Shown: one piece after another, positions 29,731-34,879 of the stretch | Layout of the letters: every line of letters starts with the position of its first letter | Numbering within the stretch: the stretch's first letter is position 1 | From: a phage | DNA: 64,000 nt | Strand: one strand, 5' to 3' | Sequence record: NC_100371.1 | The notes under the pieces: model-generated | Told to the model about the DNA's origin: nothing | Seen by the model: only the letters and a program-made list of their open reading frames with translations | The model's database searches: none | Made by a program: the position numbers and the translations under genes

Positions 29731-32067
29731 TTACCAAAGATCTGTTGACATAAAGTTAATATCTTTGTTGTTCTCCCACTCAAGTTTTGCATCAATTATT
29801 TTGTTAAACTCGCCCTCATTTATTGAAATAGTGATTTTCCCATCACTGATCTCTAAAGGTAGCATTTCCATAGTTCTTAATTGAGAAGCAAAACCAGGGC
29901 CACCTGGCAACGGAAGAGTACCGCCAAGTAAGGTGTCCAAAGGATCAACAAACCCGTTACCTCCCGATATGATATCTTTGCGAATCATATCGCTGATAGT
30001 ATCCAGTTGCTGATTTCTCTCACTCAGTGGGTTGAAACGGTCATTAAATAACTCTCCGGCGCTCAATATTGTACCGATAATACCCAGCTTACCAAGCAGG
30101 CCAACTTTACCACCAGGTGTCTTGAGGCCACCTCCACCTTTTCCTGCCGCGCCACCACCACCAGATCCTTCTGCAGTAGCTGCACCTGCTGCTCCAGCTG
30201 CGCCTCTTATAGAGCTAAGGAATTTAAAGGTTTTTACAAGCATAGATGCCATGACAAAACCTTTTGTTAGGGCGTTGACGACCAGCATGATGGCAGCAGC
30301 AAAACCTGCCCATTTAGCATAACTAAAGGTGTCATGAAGCTCTTCAGAATATTCCTTCGTCTTAGCTGTTATGAATCCCCATTTAATCCCCCATTCAAGG
30401 AAAAACAGGCGGATCTTGACTATGGTATTGTTTAGTTCACCAACTACCCAGTTGAGGCCTCTCACAAACCCGCTAACAAAATCACCAGAGGCATCCCACA
30501 CAAATTGCAAAGTCTCACCAGTGCGAATCAGTGTATAATAGAACTCTGTTAGTTCGTCAGCCCAACGGGTGAACAGTTTCTGACGGGACAGTTCGATGAA
30601 GGTTTTCAGCCTGTTTTCTGCCAACACGTTAGACTTCTGCATTCTCTCATAACCAGCTGCAGATGCCTCGTTCATGTACTTAGCCACATACTTCATGATC
30701 TTGGCTGTTTTAACCTCGCCTTTCTTCATCATGTCCATGAACTGATCCATGGAGAGTTCAGAAAGACCAAAAGCCTCTTTGGTGGCCTTGATAAAAGGTT
30801 CATATGCCCCAGGTAACGCTTCAGCAAGCTGTTGCTTAAGTTCTTCGGACATTACCTGCCCTTTACCGAGCATTTGCTGGATTGCCATAATACCGCGCTG
30901 GTATTTTACCTCATCAGCACCATAAGCAGCAGCATACTGGGAGTATGCAGAGAATAGCTCATGGACCTCTTGGTTTGTCATCTGGTTTTTGGCGTTTACC
31001 GCCATCTGGGCGTAACCTTGAAGACCAGATTTGAGATCAAAACCAAGACGCATAGCCTCTTGCTGGACAAACGCAACCTCACTGTTGGCTTTGTTTGGAT
31101 CTCCAGTAACAGCAGTAAGAGCAGCACTTGCCCCCTCCATCATGTGACCAGATCTGTTCACAGCAGTAAATCCAGAGAAAGCCGTATACGCAGCTGTTGC
31201 ATTAATAACAGATCTACGTAAGTCTCTCATGGCATCGCCTAGTGTAAGCGTTTGGCTGGTGGCGCTTTTAAATCCAGACTGCAGCGCTGACAGGTGGGCG
31301 TTAAAGGTTGACTTTTTCATCTCTCCGCGAGCAAACCTAGACTCTAACTCTGAGTATCCAGGCAAGCTTCCACGGAATCCGGCTCCATACTTGGCAGAAA
31401 GTCTTATTGCAGAGTTGTAGAGGTGGGTTCTCCTTGCCTCACGATCCGACATAAGCCTATTATCCATACCAGCTTTACTGTCCCTTCTTAGCTGTCTATG
31501 ATAACGATTCATAGCTGCTGTCTGAGCTTTCACAAGGTTAGGGTCGGAAGCCACACCACCCATATTAGGGTTACCGGGGATATACTTGAAAGATTTGGCA
31601 TTAGCCAAAACTCTTGCCTTAGGTGCCTTATAACCGCCGTAAGACACTGGTGCAGATTTGGCAACCTTTTTGGCCTCTTTAGCTTGCTGCTGGTAGAACT
31701 TACGCATCCTAGCCATTTCTGGATTTTTAGCGGTAAGATTACCTACAGCTTGTTTACGTCTCGCGTTCTCCCTACGTTCTATTGCAGCCCTTACTGCAGC
31801 CTCTTTCTTGGCTTGTGTTACGCTCTCCCTGTGCAGTTTAGCATTTGCCTGAGATTGCTGTCTGGCAACCCGCTGCATTGTTTGCTGGGTTTTAACAGCC
31901 ACTGCCTGCCATCTACTCATTGGGTTGGCTGAGTTAAAATCCTCGCCCAGTTTCCTGAACTCCCTCCCAATACTGCGAATTTTCTCTACAGCTTTTTTGT
32001 AGGAGGAGTTCTCTATCTCAAAGCCAATCTTGTTGACTGTTGTGGCAACTATTTTGTTTGTAGCCAT
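29731..32067 (-). CDS. tail tape measure protein (778 aa)
   Basis: Alpha-helical Ala/Gln/Lys-rich N-terminal half, hydrophobic segments, Gly-rich tract (GAAGAAGAATAEGSGGGGAAGKGGGG); preceded by chaperone pair. Confidence 0.7.
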   Translation of the reverse strand: MATNKIVATTVNKIGFEIENSSYKKAVEKIRSIGREFRKLGEDFNSANPMSRWQAVAVKTQQTMQRVARQQSQANAKLHRESVTQAKKEAAVRAAIERRENARRKQAVGNLTAKNPEMARMRKFYQQQAKEAKKVAKSAPVSYGGYKAPKARVLANAKSFKYIPGNPNMGGVASDPNLVKAQTAAMNRYHRQLRRDSKAGMDNRLMSDREARRTHLYNSAIRLSAKYGAGFRGSLPGYSELESRFARGEMKKSTFNAHLSALQSGFKSATSQTLTLGDAMRDLRRSVINATAAYTAFSGFTAVNRSGHMMEGASAALTAVTGDPNKANSEVAFVQQEAMRLGFDLKSGLQGYAQMAVNAKNQMTNQEVHELFSAYSQYAAAYGADEVKYQRGIMAIQQMLGKGQVMSEELKQQLAEALPGAYEPFIKATKEAFGLSELSMDQFMDMMKKGEVKTAKIMKYVAKYMNEASAAGYERMQKSNVLAENRLKTFIELSRQKLFTRWADELTEFYYTLIRTGETLQFVWDASGDFVSGFVRGLNWVVGELNNTIVKIRLFFLEWGIKWGFITAKTKEYSEELHDTFSYAKWAGFAAAIMLVVNALTKGFVMASMLVKTFKFLSSIRGAAGAAGAATAEGSGGGGAAGKGGGGLKTPGGKVGLLGKLGIIGTILSAGELFNDRFNPLSERNQQLDTISDMIRKDIISGGNGFVDPLDTLLGGTLPLPGGPGFASQLRTMEMLPLEISDGKITISINEGEFNKIIDAKLEWENNKDINFMSTDLW

Positions 32068-32085
32068 GCTTTCCTCATAATAAAA

Positions 32086-32117
32086 AGGGCCAGATCCCAG
32101 AAAAGGAATCCGGCCCT
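32086..32117 (-). terminator. hairpin/attenuator between chaperone genes and tape measure gene
   Basis: AGGGCC...GGCCCU stem with 20-nt loop followed by UUUUAUUAUGAGGAAAGC-AUG (tape measure RBS/start) on minus strand. Confidence 0.4.
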
Positions 32118-32121
32118 TAGA

Positions 32122-32370
32122 TTATCCTCTCCTGCGCTTAGCTTTCGCAGCAGCTGCGGCAGCCTTCTGCTCCCGCTCCATTTCCCTGTTTTGGACGGTA
32201 TCTAGGAATTCTTCGATATCAAGATACTCACAGAGCTTCAGGAAATACGCCATATCTGCAAGATTTAGCGATTCAAAATTTTCCCCTTTGAAATTCTTGA
32301 GCACCCTGCACCAAAGAAAGTCGAACCAGTTAAGTGAACTGTTCTTGGCTGCCCACTCACTGGCCCTCAC
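32122..32370 (-). CDS. tail assembly chaperone, -1 frame extension (T-like part of a G/GT pair)
   Basis: ORF in -1 frame relative to 32382..32855; its frame stays open upstream across the slippery site near 32481-32490; C-terminus Ala/Lys/Arg-rich. Confidence 0.5.
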   Translation of the reverse strand: MRASEWAAKNSSLNWFDFLWCRVLKNFKGENFESLNLADMAYFLKLCEYLDIEEFLDTVQNREMEREQKAAAAAAKAKRRRG

Positions 32371-32381
32371 AACAACCTTGC

Positions 32382-32855
32382 TTATTCCTGCTCTTCCGGA
32401 GTCTGATCCAGATTGTTCACCTGCTGGATCATACCCATCTGCTGTAACATCTCCAGAAGGCTTCCTAAACCGTCTTGTGTGAAAAAACAGCCGTAGTTAA
32501 CCTCCAGAACCTTACCTGCCAGCTTAATCATCTCCAGCAGATGCCCTGCAAACACAACATCAGGGTTAAGCTTATCCACACCATCCACGGTAATATCTTC
32601 GAACAAGATTTTAAATAACTCTTCAATAGAGTTATCATCAAGTTCTTGGAACAGGTAAGCCAGGGCTGTAGGAAGGACCTCTGCCATATTCTGACCGCCT
32701 GAGAGAATAGATCCACCGATAGCACCTAGTGGGACAGCCACAATCTTACCGATTTTAGGCATGTTTTTCATTGCTTTCATCGGTCCCCAGTGAGTGATCA
32801 CAAAGTTGTGCCCTGCTAAATCAATCTCTGTTGTAGGTCTAAAGTTTATAGCCAT
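32382..32855 (-). CDS. tail assembly chaperone (G-like, 157 aa)
   Basis: Acidic ORF between tube-like gene and tape measure gene; contains slippery UUUUUUC near its 3' end. Confidence 0.55.
   Translation of the reverse strand: MAINFRPTTEIDLAGHNFVITHWGPMKAMKNMPKIGKIVAVPLGAIGGSILSGGQNMAEVLPTALAYLFQELDDNSIEELFKILFEDITVDGVDKLNPDVVFAGHLLEMIKLAGKVLEVNYGCFFTQDGLGSLLEMLQQMGMIQQVNNLDQTPEEQE
32481..32490 (-). promoter_or_regulatory. candidate -1 programmed ribosomal frameshift site (U UUU UUC)
   Basis: Minus strand reads GGC UGU UUU UUC ACA in frame of 32382..32855; the -1 frame is open from here into 32122..32370. Confidence 0.45.
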
Positions 32856-33018
32856 TTTATAGCATCCTTATTAGTCATGTTGTGCACCATATTTGTGTAT
32901 TTTACCATGATTATAATGCATTGTCAATTTAACCTTTCAAGCAATCCAAAAATGGTGTGTCAAAACCATAAAAGCAAAAAGCCCCACCCGAAGGTGAGGC
33001 TTATACTAAAGTGTGCCC

Positions 33019-33492
33019 TTAGATAATGCCTGCAAGACCTGCGAGGCCAGTGAGAGCACCAGTGATGTTGTCACGGTTGAGCCATGCATCCAGAATACCG
33101 ATATCCCAGTCCAGCTGACCTACTTCGGTTCCGTAAGTGAGGTCAGGCTGTTTTTGGATCCAACCGATTGTAGCAATACCAGGACCCTGGCTACCTTCCA
33201 GCAGAACCGGGAAGAATACCAGACCAGTAATAGATGCCTGTTTCTGCCAGTCAGAAAGGTAAGCGTTCCATACAGAAGTGTTCTGCAAAGACACAGTCAT
33301 AACACCGGATTGGTTACGAGACAGGGCCGCAGACATTTCGCCATCCACACCAACATGAGGGTAGATGTTGTCTTCGTTTCTTGAAACAACGATCTTGGTG
33401 TCAGCAGCGAAGCCAGTGACACGCTGCTGCATCAGGTACAGTTTGACCTTTTTAGGGTCATAAGCATAAGGAGTTAAAATTTGAGTTTCCAT
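33019..33492 (-). CDS. tail tube-like protein (157 aa)
   Basis: Small ORF directly downstream of sheath-like gene and upstream of chaperones/tape measure; size typical of tube proteins. Confidence 0.45.
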   Translation of the reverse strand: METQILTPYAYDPKKVKLYLMQQRVTGFAADTKIVVSRNEDNIYPHVGVDGEMSAALSRNQSGVMTVSLQNTSVWNAYLSDWQKQASITGLVFFPVLLEGSQGPGIATIGWIQKQPDLTYGTEVGQLDWDIGILDAWLNRDNITGALTGLAGLAGII

Positions 33493-33502
33493 CTAGTCTT
33501 CC

Positions 33503-34879
33503 TTATTCAGTCATTGCAACAGCATTGGTGGATTTAGAACCAACTTTGTCCAGAAGGACGTTGATCCGGATACGAACGAAGTGCAGGGCGTTGTTATACA
33601 CCAGTTCTACTTTCACACCTTCCAGAACACGAGCAGCCAACTGATTGGTTGGGATCTCTGCACGTTTAGGAACTGTGATAATCGGGTCGTAGAACACATT
33701 GTTGTCTTCGTCAAAACCTGTCAGGATCGCGCCATTCTTAATGCCAGTATTGATCGGGTTGTTCATCAGAACAGACTTGATAACCGGAAGATCATCATCA
33801 GACATCTTCATGCTTAAACCCATATTGGAGCGGCGATGCATGTACCCAAACATGGATTCTTCAGATCTGAACTTGATCCAGTGTGCAAAACGAATAGCGT
33901 CTGCATACTGACCTGAAGCACACTTACCTTCCCAGAAAGCGCCAACACCGTTAATCATTCTGTAGAAGTTAACGTGGTTTTCCCAAATCGCCATACGCTG
34001 AGTTAAAGTCAGAGATGGTGCAATCACACCCGGCATCTGTTTTAAGTGCAAGCTGTCACCGTAGGACGGATCGTTGGATGCCATAGCACCTATGATACCA
34101 CCCTCCGGGAAGTCCTTATCTGCACGAGGATCGTACATGCCAACACTGTCATATTGTGCAGCTTTCAGTTTGGTAGCGATGTTGCTATCTTTGCCAGTCA
34201 CATCTTCTGCAGTAGAGTAGACGTGCAGCTTGTAGTTGGCCTGAGCCCACTTAGCACATGCTTCAATGTCGGTGTGGTCTTCATGGCACAGGAAGTACCA
34301 ATTGTCCCGCTCAGCATTGATCTTATCAACTACTGTAGAAGGTTTTTCAGAATTGGCGATATTCTTGATTGTATAGTTACCAGTATGATAACCAACAGTG
34401 CAGTTACCAGTGATGGTGATAACACCTTCTTCAGCCTCTACAGTGATACCGTCCAAATTATCATCTGCTTCGATTTTAGTCTTCATTGACTCTGCAATCT
34501 GAGTTGCACCTGTTCCACCAGAGATAGGCACTATCAGAGAGGTATTGTAGCCACCTTTTGCAATAGTCATTACGACATCGGTATCGGCTGCGGCAGCAAT
34601 ACCTTTAAAGTCTACAGTGGTTTTTTCTTTGGCCTGTCTGCCGATCATAACATATTGTGGAGGGAATACACCACCAAAAGCTTTTGCTGCAAACTCATAC
34701 GCTGCAGAGCCTTGTGCGAAACCATCTTCCACCATCTGATCCAGCTCCGCATATACGCGAGCTCGCTCAGTAAAGTTGTTGTGGATAGCGATGAACAGGG
34801 GAGTTTCGAAACCTACAGTGTCAATAGGTTGGGTTCCGAGGTTAACTGTAACATCTACCACTTTATCTAAATATGGCAT
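33503..34879 (-). CDS. tail sheath-like protein (458 aa)
   Basis: Size and position (neck genes, then this, then tube-like gene, chaperones, tape measure) match contractile-tail gene order; no motif confirmation. Confidence 0.45.
   Translation of the reverse strand: MPYLDKVVDVTVNLGTQPIDTVGFETPLFIAIHNNFTERARVYAELDQMVEDGFAQGSAAYEFAAKAFGGVFPPQYVMIGRQAKEKTTVDFKGIAAAADTDVVMTIAKGGYNTSLIVPISGGTGATQIAESMKTKIEADDNLDGITVEAEEGVITITGNCTVGYHTGNYTIKNIANSEKPSTVVDKINAERDNWYFLCHEDHTDIEACAKWAQANYKLHVYSTAEDVTGKDSNIATKLKAAQYDSVGMYDPRADKDFPEGGIIGAMASNDPSYGDSLHLKQMPGVIAPSLTLTQRMAIWENHVNFYRMINGVGAFWEGKCASGQYADAIRFAHWIKFRSEESMFGYMHRRSNMGLSMKMSDDDLPVIKSVLMNNPINTGIKNGAILTGFDEDNNVFYDPIITVPKRAEIPTNQLAARVLEGVKVELVYNNALHFVRIRINVLLDKVGSKSTNAVAMTE

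What the first reader, a model, noticed from the sequence alone, without database searches (positions are those of the whole stretch)
32122..32855. Candidate -1 programmed frameshift in the tail assembly chaperone pair
The 157-aa chaperone ORF contains UGU UUU UUC (heptamer U UUU UUC) at 32481-32490. The -1 frame is open from this site through the downstream 82-aa ORF, which would give a fusion of about 240 aa with an Ala/Lys/Arg-rich tail. This mirrors the conserved G/GT arrangement upstream of tape measure genes.
Basis: partly seen in the sequence, partly recalled or inferred. Interest (0 to 1): 0.5.

Follow-up and report, generated by a model that had tools for sequence, protein, structure and literature searches.

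The report
Tail chaperone frameshift in rV5-like phage
This E. coli phage almost certainly makes a short and a long version of its tail-assembly helper protein by letting a few ribosomes slip back one base at a UUUUUUC run, a well-known phage trick that has simply not been annotated in this phage group.

Summary
On the minus strand, the 157-aa tail assembly chaperone gene (32855..32382, Pfam PF21822) contains UGU UUU UUC at 32489..32481. The heptamer is U_UUU_UUC at 32487..32481. The -1 frame opens 9 nt upstream and runs 119 codons to a stop at 32124..32122, just before the tape measure gene. The predicted fusion is 244 aa.

The window is a Vequintavirus (rV5/FV3-like, 96-98% identical). Comparative evidence strongly supports a programmed -1 ribosomal frameshift:
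- All 51 distinct relatives carrying the site (28-100% protein identity) keep TTT-TTC after a codon ending in T, although Phe codons elsewhere are about 1:1.
- The -1 frame is stop-free in every one of them.
- The T region has dN/dS 0.03.
- The 82-aa ORF's GTG start is lost in close relatives.
- Rheinheimera phages use G_GGA_AAG instead.

Felix O1-like homologues (Meda, Mordin) already carry this frameshift as a joined CDS in GenBank at the same heptamer. A 2025 paper describes it for two related families. No Vequintavirus record inspected annotates it.

No downstream RNA structure was found. An upstream GGAGG may stimulate slippage. Nothing has been tested experimentally.

Verdict: real, ordinary, a new member of a known kind; mainly an annotation correction.

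The parts
32899..32927 (-). Sigma-70-like promoter TTGACA-17-TAAAAT (TG-extended, 11 of 12 matches) in the 163-nt gap upstream of the chaperone gene
   Evidence: The rV5 record annotates a promoter (P51) at the equivalent place. This is a consensus match only.
32382..32855 (-). Tail assembly chaperone 'G' ORF in the 0 frame: 157 aa, 17.25 kDa, pI 4.5
   Evidence: Pfam PF21822 Phage_TAC_15 scores 84.5 bits against a cutoff of 22, E=1e-23, residues 15-129. phrog_3840 'tail assembly chaperone'.
32501..32505 (-). [quoted passage not shown]
   Evidence: Read from the sequence. It lies within the 6-17 nt range shown experimentally to be stimulatory (PMC4066793). GAGG or GGAG is present in 40 of 51 distinct homologues. 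The Glu codon here is GAG 42: GAA 8, against 187: 448 elsewhere in these genes. Function is inferred, not shown.
32481..32487 (-). Slippery heptamer U_UUU_UUC (codons UGU UUU UUC = 32489..32481); proposed site of the -1 slip with tRNA-Phe in both the P and A sites
   Evidence: Invariant in 51 of 51 distinct homologues. U_UU.U_UU.C is among the efficient -1 motifs in E. coli (PMC4066793).
32382..32481 (-). Overlap zone. The 0 frame encodes the 32-aa acidic C-terminal tail of G. The -1 frame encodes the start of a Gly/Ser/Asp/Pro-rich linker beginning HTRRFRKPSG
   Evidence: The 0 frame is constrained (dN/dS 0.06). The -1 reading is unconstrained apart from the absence of stops. The [RH]F[RQ][RK]P motif directly after the site is conserved across families.
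32122..32481 (-). 'T' segment in the -1 frame (119 codons plus stop at 32124..32122): linker, about 60-aa predicted helical core, and basic tail KAAAAAAKAKRRRG
   Evidence: dN/dS is 0.03 over the 85 codons beyond the G stop. phrog_10409, unknown function. Alignment A3 across 17 lineages.
32122..32370 (-). 82-aa ORF (GTG start) annotated as a separate 'hypothetical protein' in relatives; here read as the 3' part of GT, not a separate gene
   Evidence: The GTG is absent in the 90%-identity clade (L054-56) and in L058, where gene callers call nothing, yet the frame and protein sequence are kept.
32122..32855 (-). Predicted GT fusion CDS: join of 32855..32481 and 32481..32122 with base 32481 read twice; 244 aa, 27.13 kDa
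   Evidence: The diagnostic tryptic junction peptide is VLEVNYGCFFHTR.
32085..32118 (-). Terminator-like hairpin (14 pairs plus T-run) between the T stop and the tape measure start
   Evidence: The rV5 record annotates a rho-independent terminator here.
32979..33002 (-). Terminator-like hairpin directly after the tube gene
29731..32067 (-). Tape measure protein gene (778 aa), immediately downstream
   Evidence: Pfam PF20155 TMP_3, E=4e-18.
33019..33492 (-). Tail tube gene (157 aa), immediately upstream
   Evidence: Pfam PF11681, E=4e-9. Annotated as tail tube in HeinrichReichert.

Best explanation
This is a G/GT-type programmed -1 ribosomal frameshift in the tail assembly chaperone gene of a Vequintavirus (rV5-like) myophage.

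Most ribosomes read the 0 frame to the stop at 32384..32382 and make the 157-aa chaperone G. A minority slip back one base when UUU is in the P site and UUC is in the A site of U_UUU_UUC (32487..32481, minus strand). Both codons are read by tRNA-Phe, which re-pairs with UUU/UUU. Those ribosomes then read CAC ACA AGA and onward in the -1 frame. The product is a 244-aa GT protein: the complete PF21822 domain (residues 1-125), a flexible Gly/Ser-rich linker, a small helical T domain and a basic tail.

The 82-aa 'hypothetical protein' ORF is the 3' end of GT, not a separate gene.

By analogy with lambda gpG/gpGT and P2 gpE/E+E', the shared G part would coat the tape measure protein. The rare T domain would recruit the tube protein, so the slip frequency fixes the G:GT ratio needed for tail assembly.

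What is shown: the anatomy, its conservation, and selection on the -1 frame. What is inferred: that ribosomes actually slip here, the efficiency, a stimulatory role for the upstream GGAGG, and the binding partners.
For: 1. Context. The window is 96-98% identical to rV5/FV3-like phages. Gene order is sheath, tube, TAC, -1 ORF, TMP.

2. G is a bona fide TAC: PF21822, 84.5 bits against a cutoff of 22. The Pfam match ends at residue 129 in G and 126 in the fusion, so the slip falls exactly at the domain's end.

3. The heptamer is the only one in G and sits 9 nt after the -1 frame opens.

4. Conservation. Across 58 loci (51 distinct) from Vequintavirus, Seunavirus, Klebsiella phages, Avunavirus, Certrevirus, Phapecoctavirus, Justusliebigvirus, Plateaulakevirus and metagenomic clades:
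- The first Phe codon is TTT in 51 of 51 and the second is TTC in 51 of 51.
- The preceding codon always ends in T, although its amino acid varies (TGT, CCT, TCT, AGT).
- Phe codons elsewhere in the same genes are 215 TTT: 191 TTC.

5. The -1 frame is stop-free from the site to just before the TMP gene in every locus. The probability, given the same G protein and codon usage, is 0.001-0.33 per clade. The product over 18 representatives is 8e-17.

6. The T-only region has dN/dS 0.03 at dS 1.26, as constrained as G itself at 0.05.

7. The GTG start of the 82-aa ORF is lost in the 90% clade and in L058. Annotated starts differ between genera.

8. Different slippery sequences occur at the equivalent place in relatives. 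Barba phages have G_GGA_AAG, Vibrio qdvp001 has A_AAT_TTT, and Otagovirus has G_GTT_TTT.

9. Ounavirinae PF21822 homologues Meda and Mordin carry a joined 'frameshift product' CDS. Its length equals a -1 slip at the same in-phase T_TTT_TTC.

10. U_UU.U_UU.C is among the efficient -1 motifs in E. coli and gives >0.1% frameshifting without any stimulator (PMC4066793).

11. A published comparative case exists for related families (PMC12846349).

12. It is the only heptamer in the 64-kb window followed by a -1 ORF of >=60 codons.
Against: - There is no experimental evidence for this phage or any Vequintavirus. The rV5 genomics and proteomics paper does not mention a frameshift or chaperone. TACs are absent from virions, so virion proteomics would not see GT.
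- No significant or conserved downstream stem-loop or pseudoknot was found. For 75 nt downstream, z-scores range from -1.7 to +1.1 across 25 lineages, and the window's own 101 nt gives z=-1.6. Rfam finds nothing.
- The window does have a GTG with a weak AAGG 5 nt upstream, so some independent initiation cannot be excluded.
- The 51 sequences are phylogenetically related, so the counts overstate independence.
- The viral-contig search pattern required the ...FF peptide. It was blind to codon choice but not to lineages lacking FF.
Confidence: 0.9

Rival explanations
1. Two separate genes. The 82-aa ORF is translated on its own from GTG 32370, and the U-run is an incidental Phe-Phe dipeptide.
For: This is how every Vequintavirus GenBank record inspected annotates it. 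A GTG with AAGG 5 nt upstream exists in the window. The ORF matches its own PHROG, phrog_10409.
Against: - The GTG is absent in the 90%-identity clade and in L058 while the protein sequence upstream of it is retained. The first in-frame start there would cut off the conserved N-terminal third of the T core.
- Annotated starts vary between genera, from 44 to 88 aa.
- The -1 frame stays open about 100 nt upstream of any start in all lineages.
- The [RH]F[RQ][RK]P motif directly after the heptamer is conserved in the -1 frame, even where the 0-frame peptide differs.
- The heptamer's synonymous positions are invariant.
Confidence: 0.05
2. Transcriptional slippage. RNA polymerase adds an extra U at the T6 run, and standard translation of the edited mRNA yields the same fusion.
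For: The site is a homopolymer run. Slippage on A/T runs is known in bacteria and phages (review PMC5009743).
Against: - The run is only six T. Efficient polymerase slippage usually needs longer runs (my background knowledge, not tested here).
- The last base is invariably C rather than T, which keeps the run short.
- Relatives use non-homopolymeric heptamers at the same place: G_GGA_AAG in Barba phages and A_AAT_TTT in qdvp001. These fit tRNA re-pairing but not polymerase slippage.
Confidence: 0.04
3. Chance coincidence of a heptamer with an open alternative frame, with no biological function.
For: In-frame X_XXY_YYZ motifs are common, at about 1 per 370 codons in this window.
Against: Conservation of the site, the open frame and the -1-frame protein sequence holds across lineages down to 28% identity.
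Confidence: 0.01

Closest known systems
Felix O1-like (Ounavirinae) tape measure chaperone frameshift, as annotated in Salmonella phage Meda (MH586731) and Citrobacter phage Mordin (NC_041977)
   Same: The G protein belongs to the same Pfam family, PF21822. The same in-phase T_TTT_TTC lies at the same place, the end of the domain (...NFGSFF against ...NYGCFF). The shift is -1 in both, and the position between tube and tape measure genes is the same. The BLASTP alignment of the two fusions runs through the junction.
   Different: G proteins are only about 24-30% identical. T-domain homology is not demonstrable by profile comparison (hhalign E 0.003, probability 10%). The overlap is shorter, about 14 codons against 32. 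The frameshift is annotated there and not in Vequintavirus records.
Conserved -1 PRF with a GTTTTT motif in TAC genes of Vandenendeviridae (Pakpunavirus and relatives) and Andersonviridae (Viruses 2025, PMC12846349)
   Same: The argument and architecture are the same: a TAC-N/TAC-NC pair, a poly-T slip site at the 3' end of TAC-N, and an uninterrupted -1 frame across divergent genera. The Otagovirus TAC is PF21822 and shares the RFRRP motif after the site.
   Different: That paper's TAC-locus alignments covered Vandenendeviridae and Andersonviridae; in the passages I read, Vequintavirinae is named only as a related clade. In Otagovirus the site is G_GUU_UUU, with A-site re-pairing only, rather than a full X_XXY_YYZ heptamer.
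Lambda gpG/gpGT (Levin 1993; Xu, Hendrix and Duda 2004, 2013, 2014, as summarised in PMC5009743)
   Same: Two overlapping ORFs lie between the major tail gene and the tape measure gene. A -1 slip on a simple heptamer extends G with a T domain, and no strong RNA stimulator is evident. The presumed role is to fix the G:GT ratio for tail assembly.
   Different: Lambda is a siphovirus. There is no detectable sequence similarity. The heptamer is G_GGA_AAG (tRNA-Gly/tRNA-Lys) rather than U_UUU_UUC (tRNA-Phe twice). In lambda the slip is at the very end of G (my background knowledge, not checked here), whereas here it is 32 codons before the stop.
P2 gpE/gpE+E'
   Same: Both are contractile-tailed phages with a -1 slip on a T-run heptamer (TTTTTTG in P2, as I recall) in the chaperone gene between the tube and tape measure genes.
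   Different: The protein family is different and the last base of the heptamer differs. The efficiency is reported as 2-3 fold higher than lambda (PMC5009743), whereas it is unknown here.
dnaX / IS911-type -1 frameshift signals
   Same: An SD-like GGAGG lies upstream of the heptamer within the experimentally stimulatory 6-17 nt range.
   Different: No downstream hairpin was found. The SD-like element overlaps conserved Leu-Glu-Val codons and is missing in Certrevirus, the Klebsiella clade and the Aeromonas phage.

Membership tests
G/GT-type tail assembly chaperone frameshift (Xu, Hendrix and Duda 2004) | A pair of overlapping ORFs located between the major tail/tube gene and the tape measure gene | tested here: met
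   Tube 33492..33019, G 32855..32382, -1 ORF down to 32122, TMP 32067..29731.
G/GT-type tail assembly chaperone frameshift (Xu, Hendrix and Duda 2004) | The downstream ORF is in an alternative frame that is open back into the 3' part of the upstream ORF | tested here: met
   The -1 frame is open from 32496, a 112-nt overlap with G. The +1 frame is closed, with a 19-codon window.
G/GT-type tail assembly chaperone frameshift (Xu, Hendrix and Duda 2004) | A slippery sequence in the correct phase inside the overlap | tested here: met
   T_TTT_TTC at 32487..32481 is the only X_XXY_YYZ in G. The motif is shift-prone in E. coli (PMC4066793).
G/GT-type tail assembly chaperone frameshift (Xu, Hendrix and Duda 2004) | The arrangement is conserved among relatives despite sequence divergence | tested here: met
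   58 loci down to 28% identity. Alternative heptamers occur in Barba phages and qdvp001.
G/GT-type tail assembly chaperone frameshift (Xu, Hendrix and Duda 2004) | Two proteins (G and GT) are actually produced in a fixed ratio, and both are needed for tail assembly | not testable with these tools
   Needs a western blot or mass spectrometry, plus phage genetics.
G/GT-type tail assembly chaperone frameshift (Xu, Hendrix and Duda 2004) | The G part binds the tape measure protein and the T part binds the tube or major tail protein | not testable with these tools
   Inferred from lambda (PMC5009743). The fusion could not be submitted for structure prediction.
Pfam PF21822 Phage_TAC_15 | A score above the curated gathering threshold | tested here: met
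   84.5 bits against 22, E=1.1e-23. All 73 database homologues also carry PF21822.
Ounavirinae 'tape measure chaperone frameshift product' (Meda, Mordin) | The same slip site at the homologous position of a homologous G | tested here: met
   An in-phase T_TTT_TTC follows ...NFGSFF. The annotated join lengths of 212 and 213 aa are reproduced by a -1 slip there. The Ounavirinae TAC tested against Pfam (Hafnia phage SarahDanielle, L059) is PF21822. Meda and Mordin were found by tblastn with that protein and were not themselves scanned against Pfam.
Ounavirinae 'tape measure chaperone frameshift product' (Meda, Mordin) | A homologous T domain | tested here: inconclusive
   hhalign of A3 against A4 gives E 0.003 but probability 10% over 73 columns. 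The shared [RH]F[RQ][RK]P motif is at the junction.
Stimulated -1 PRF signal (dnaX/IS911 type) | An upstream SD-like sequence 6-17 nt before the motif | tested here: met
   [quoted passage not shown] There is a GAG codon bias at this site. The stimulatory function itself was not tested.
Stimulated -1 PRF signal (dnaX/IS911 type) | A downstream stem-loop or pseudoknot 5-9 nt after the motif | tested here: not met
   MFE z-scores range from -1.7 to +1.1 in 25 lineages with no shared structure. The window gives z=-1.6, with the stem starting 19 nt downstream. No Rfam match.
Programmed transcriptional slippage | A long homopolymer run whose phase is irrelevant, with relatives keeping a homopolymer | tested here: not met
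   The run is only T6 followed by an invariant C. Relatives use G_GGA_AAG and A_AAT_TTT.

The most novel reading that the evidence does not exclude
One ancestral frameshift site has been held at the same codon, the end of the PF21822 domain, across a very large group of contractile-tailed phages. The group includes Vequintavirinae, Stephanstirmvirinae, Ounavirinae/Andersonviridae, Vandenendeviridae, Plateaulakevirus, Barbavirus and Vibrio and Acinetobacter phages.

The conserved features flanking the heptamer may form a frameshift-tuning signal that works without a downstream RNA structure. Those features are the upstream GAGG/GGAG, kept by synonymous choice, and the GGUUU / [RH]F[RQ][RK]P element 8-10 nt downstream. 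The downstream element could act through a second U_UUC slip site or through the nascent peptide.
Probability: 0.15. Interest if true: 0.4.

Novelty: new member of a known kind. Interest (0 to 1): 0.2.

Why it matters
The main value is annotation. About 120 Vequintavirus genomes, and several hundred genomes in related genera, list the T region as a separate 'hypothetical protein' or leave it blank. Many of these are phage-therapy and biocontrol candidates. A search of 5.8 billion predicted proteins returned none that covers the fusion. Recognising one joined CDS removes a spurious gene and names a tail-assembly protein.

More broadly, the data extend a recently described conserved slip site from two phage families to Vequintavirinae, Stephanstirmvirinae and others. 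They also give a clean natural series: U_UUU_UUC, G_GUU_UUU, G_GGA_AAG and A_AAT_TTT at one homologous position. That series could be used to study how slip-site choice sets the G:GT ratio. It does not change the understanding of frameshifting or of tail assembly.

Tried and rejected
- Downstream RNA stimulator. I folded the 101 nt after the heptamer (z=-1.6, stem starting 19 nt downstream). I also folded 75 nt in 25 lineages (z from -1.7 to +1.1, no common hairpin). Rejected as unsupported.
- Rfam scan of 32000..33050. The only match was a sub-threshold GcvB hit (E 0.15), which is chance.
- Search for an annotated or natural in-frame fusion. The 244-aa fusion was searched against 5.8 billion proteins. 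All 73 hits are 149-159 aa G proteins covering at most 62% of the query.
- T part alone. Only 3 clusters of about 80-aa ORFs were found.
- Structure. Structure prediction refuses the composite fusion. The T part with a 4-sequence alignment gave mean pLDDT 50.8, so I ran no fold search. Only the coil-then-four-helices pattern is noted.
- PDB sequence and profile searches. Nothing significant was found. 5ir0_A 'ORF19' scores E=0.053 to the G profile, which is a lead only.
- T-domain profile comparison between the Vequintavirus-type and Ounavirinae-type groups. Inconclusive.
- MiataMamis annotates the T region as two tiny ORFs, which suggested a broken frame. The sequence is in fact intact, so this is an annotation artefact.
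- The +1 frame is closed, so a +1 or -2 shift is rejected.
- The rV5 paper was checked for any prior mention of the frameshift. None was found.
Full report
**1. What is in the sequence**

All genes in this part of the window run on the minus strand. In order of transcription they are:
- sheath, 34879..33503 (Pfam DUF3383)
- tube, 33492..33019 (PF11681)
- a 157-aa ORF, 32855..32382
- an 82-aa ORF, 32370..32122
- a 778-aa tape measure protein, 32067..29731 (PF20155)

The 157-aa protein matches Pfam PF21822 (Phage_TAC_15, tail assembly chaperone) at 84.5 bits against a cutoff of 22, over residues 15-129. It also matches PHROG 3840, 'tail assembly chaperone'. The 82-aa ORF matches only PHROGs of unknown function.

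Codons 123-125 of the chaperone are TGT TTT TTC at 32489..32481. The heptamer T_TTT_TTC (32487..32481) is therefore in the X_XXY_YYZ phase. It is the only such heptamer in the gene.

The 82-aa ORF is in the -1 frame. That frame has 16 stops in the 125 codons before the site. It opens 9 nt upstream of the heptamer (32496) and then has no stop for 119 codons, until 32124..32122. A -1 slip gives a 244-aa, 27.1-kDa protein:
- residues 1-125 of the chaperone
- then HTRRFRKPSG...
- a Gly/Ser/Asp/Pro-rich stretch
- a core (ISKVVVRASEWAAKNSSLNWFDFLWCRVLKNFKGENFESLNLADMAYFLKLCEYLDIEEFLDTV)
- the tail KAAAAAAKAKRRRG

**2. Is it more than chance?**

A heptamer by itself is not significant. ORFs of >=150 aa in the window contain 50 in-frame X_XXY_YYZ motifs in 18,547 codons. 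Only two of these have a -1 frame that runs past the 0-frame stop. Only this one is followed by a -1 ORF of >=60 codons.

**3. What the window is**

The 5.2-kb tail module is 96-98% identical to more than 100 Vequintavirus genomes, including rV5, FV3, slur16 and HeinrichReichert. These records annotate the chaperone and the 82-aa ORF as two CDSs, or leave the second unannotated. The rV5 RefSeq record draws ORF50 overlapping ORF51 by 109 nt. No join was seen in any Vequintavirus record whose feature table I opened. Nor did the feature names of the 60 of 121 records listed suggest one.

A search of 5.8 billion predicted proteins with the 244-aa fusion returned 73 hits. All are 149-159 aa and all cover <=62% of the query. 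The search therefore found the fusion neither as an annotated protein nor as a natural in-frame gene.

**4. Comparative test**

I collected 58 loci that carry the site, 51 of them distinct. They come from annotated phages, IMG/VR contigs and metagenome assemblies. They span these groups:
- Vequintavirus
- two metagenomic clades at 90% and 75% protein identity
- Seunavirus
- Klebsiella phages
- Avunavirus
- Certrevirus
- Phapecoctavirus
- Justusliebigvirus
- Plateaulakevirus
- several unnamed lineages, down to 28% identity

(a) *Heptamer.* It is invariant. The first Phe codon is TTT in 51 of 51 and the second is TTC in 51 of 51. The preceding codon always ends in T although the amino acid changes (TGT 30, CCT 16, TCT 4, AGT 1). 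Elsewhere in the same genes Phe is 215 TTT: 191 TTC. The IMG/VR scan was seeded on the peptide ...NYG[CP]FF. It was therefore blind to codon choice, but it could not find lineages without FF.

(b) *Open -1 frame.* In every locus the -1 frame is stop-free from the heptamer to a stop just before the tape measure gene (110-149 aa). I resampled synonymous codons of the 0-frame tail using each gene's own usage. This gives a stop-free -1 frame with probability 0.001-0.33 per lineage. The product over 18 clade representatives is 8e-17, though these are not fully independent.

(c) *Selection on T.* The 85 codons beyond the G stop have dN/dS 0.03 against the 90% clade, with dS 1.26. This is as constrained as the chaperone itself (0.05). 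Inside the overlap, the 0 frame is the constrained one (0.06). The -1 reading behaves as a free linker whose only requirement is the absence of stops.

(d) *Independent start.* The GTG that starts the 82-aa ORF is absent in the 90% clade and in L058. Gene callers called nothing between the chaperone and the tape measure gene there. The first in-frame start would remove the conserved N-terminal third of the T core. Annotated starts in other genera give ORFs of 44 to 88 aa.

(e) *Other heptamers at the same place.*
- Rheinheimera Barba phages lack the T-run but have the lambda heptamer G_GGA_AAG in phase in the open window. It leads into a homologous T (VFRIPSGD... against RFRKPSGD...).
- Vibrio phage qdvp001 has A_AAT_TTT.
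- Otagovirus has G_GTT_TTT and Acinetobacter Ab15 has T_GTT_TTT.

(f) *Junction motif.* A short -1-frame motif, [RH]F[RQ][RK]P, directly follows the site in most lineages. This includes Ounavirinae, where the 0-frame peptide at that place is different. That argues the -1 frame is translated from the site itself.

(g) *Nucleotide conservation.* Conservation peaks from about 20 nt upstream through the heptamer. This 56-nt block is the only part of the 734-nt region that megablast still aligns between Vequintavirus and Avunavirus.

**5. Relation to what is known**

TACs of Ounavirinae (Felix O1-like), Otagovirus (Vandenendeviridae), Ab15 and qdvp001 all match PF21822.

Its length (213 and 212 aa) is reproduced exactly by a -1 slip at an in-phase T_TTT_TTC after ...NFGSFF. 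BLASTP of the window's fusion against Meda's aligns residues 15-137 with 10-133, that is, through the junction.

A December 2025 paper argues for a conserved -1 frameshift with a GTTTTT motif in the TAC locus of Vandenendeviridae and Andersonviridae. It notes their relatedness to Vequintavirinae, but in the passages I read its TAC-locus analysis covers only the first two families (PMC12846349). The rV5 genome paper does not mention a frameshift.

T_TTT_TTC was also proposed for the TAC pair of Pseudomonas Mu-like siphophages, 43 codons before the stop (PMC4378225). In E. coli, U_UU.U_UU.C belongs to the efficient H_HH.U_UU.Y class and gives more than 0.1% frameshifting without any stimulator (PMC4066793).

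The general paradigm is lambda gpG/gpGT. It is conserved in long-tailed phages, with G binding the tape measure protein and T binding the tail tube subunit. It is summarised in PMC5009743.

Profile comparison of the T domains of the Vequintavirus-type and Ounavirinae-type groups is inconclusive (E 0.003, probability 10%).

**6. Stimulatory elements**

No downstream structure stands out. The window's 101 nt fold with z=-1.6, and the main stem starts 19 nt after the heptamer. Across 25 lineages the 75-nt downstream folds have z from -1.7 to +1.1 and share no hairpin. Rfam has nothing.

[quoted passage not shown] This is inside the 6-17 nt range in which SD-like sequences were shown to stimulate -1 frameshifting (PMC4066793). 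GAGG or GGAG is present in 40 of 51 distinct homologues. The Glu codon that forms it is GAG 42: GAA 8, against 187: 448 for Glu elsewhere in these genes.

This is suggestive of selection for the element. However, it is confounded by relatedness and by the conserved Leu-Glu-Val peptide. It is also absent from Certrevirus, the Klebsiella clade and the Aeromonas phage.

**7. Context**

The G/GT pair looks like its own small transcription unit:
- a terminator-like hairpin after the tube gene (33002..32979)
- a near-consensus promoter (32927..32899)
- a 14-bp terminator-like hairpin between the T stop and the tape measure start (32118..32085)

This matches the promoter and terminator annotated in rV5.

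**8. Mechanism and rivals**

The best-supported reading, at about 0.9, is a ribosomal -1 slip with tRNA-Phe in both the P and A sites. It yields a minority GT product whose frequency sets the G:GT ratio.

- *Independent initiation of the 82-aa ORF* (about 0.05) is contradicted by points 4b, 4d and 4f above, although it could coexist at low level in this phage.
- *Transcriptional slippage* (about 0.04) is unlikely for a T6 run capped by an invariant C. It does not fit the non-homopolymeric heptamers in relatives.
- *Chance* is effectively excluded.

The roles of G (coating the tape measure) and T (recruiting the tube protein) are inferred from lambda and were not tested. The T part alone modelled poorly (pLDDT 50.8), showing only a disordered first 29 residues and four helices. 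The fusion could not be submitted. No solved structure matches.

**9. Verdict**

The finding is real and correctly interpreted, but it is an ordinary instance of a long-known phage recoding device. Within its own protein family the same site is already annotated in Felix O1-like phages and described in a recent paper.

What is new is its recognition in Vequintavirus and several neighbouring genera, where databases list a spurious separate gene. The natural series of alternative heptamers at one homologous position is also new. Novelty: new member of a known kind. Interest: about 0.2.

Noticed in passing
window 32085..32118 (-) and 32979..33002 (-), promoter 32899..32927 (-): The chaperone pair sits in its own promoter-terminator unit. 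A 14-bp terminator-like hairpin lies directly between the T stop and the tape measure start, so tape measure expression would need read-through or another promoter.
   Followed up: partly
window 32472..32478 (-) and homologous positions in L005-L064: GGTTT[CA]G, 8-10 nt after the heptamer, is conserved across families. It encodes Gly-Phe/Leu in frame 0 and the Phe of the [RH]F[RQ][RK]P motif in frame -1. In most lineages other than Vequintavirus it also forms an in-phase U_UUC tetramer, a possible second slip site. I could not separate protein-level from RNA-level constraint.
   Followed up: partly
phage records MG065639-MG065682: About 20 GenBank records named 'Campylobacter phage' with host C. 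jejuni are 98% identical to E. coli Vequintavirus genomes, or to Justusliebigvirus in one case. They carry no annotation. The host label looks doubtful.
   Followed up: no
L051 1-1397 and L052 1-1444 (human gut metagenome contigs, 75% clade): In two contigs of this clade a 512-621 aa gene with DUF723 (PF05265) repeats lies immediately upstream of the chaperone. L053 of the same clade has the tube gene nearby. This may be a mobile-element insertion between the tube and chaperone genes.
   Followed up: no
L011 2120-2758 (Rheinheimera phage Barba5A): A reverse-strand 'putative DNA binding protein' gene is inserted between the T stop and the tape measure gene. This breaks the usual TAC-TMP adjacency.
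   Followed up: no
L003 3040-3278 (Escherichia phage MiataMamis): The T region is annotated as two tiny ORFs (32 and 44 aa) although the -1 frame is intact and identical in length to the window's. This is an annotation artefact of automatic gene calling.
   Followed up: yes
window about 63085 (+), ORF starting about 62654 and ending about 63112: This is the only other in-frame heptamer in the window (A_AAG_GGA) whose -1 frame runs past the 0-frame stop, by 43 codons. It is a poor slip motif and is probably chance.
   Followed up: no
PDB 5ir0_A ('Uncharacterized protein ORF19', 161 aa): There is a marginal full-length match of the chaperone profile (E 0.053, profile positions 7-136 against chain residues 8-132). 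It may be a solved structure of a PF21822-type chaperone.
   Followed up: no
L061 3029-3828 (Vibrio phage qdvp001): This PF21822 chaperone is 192 aa with a long N-terminal extension. Its only in-phase heptamer in the open -1 window is A_AAT_TTT, 37 codons before the stop.
   Followed up: partly
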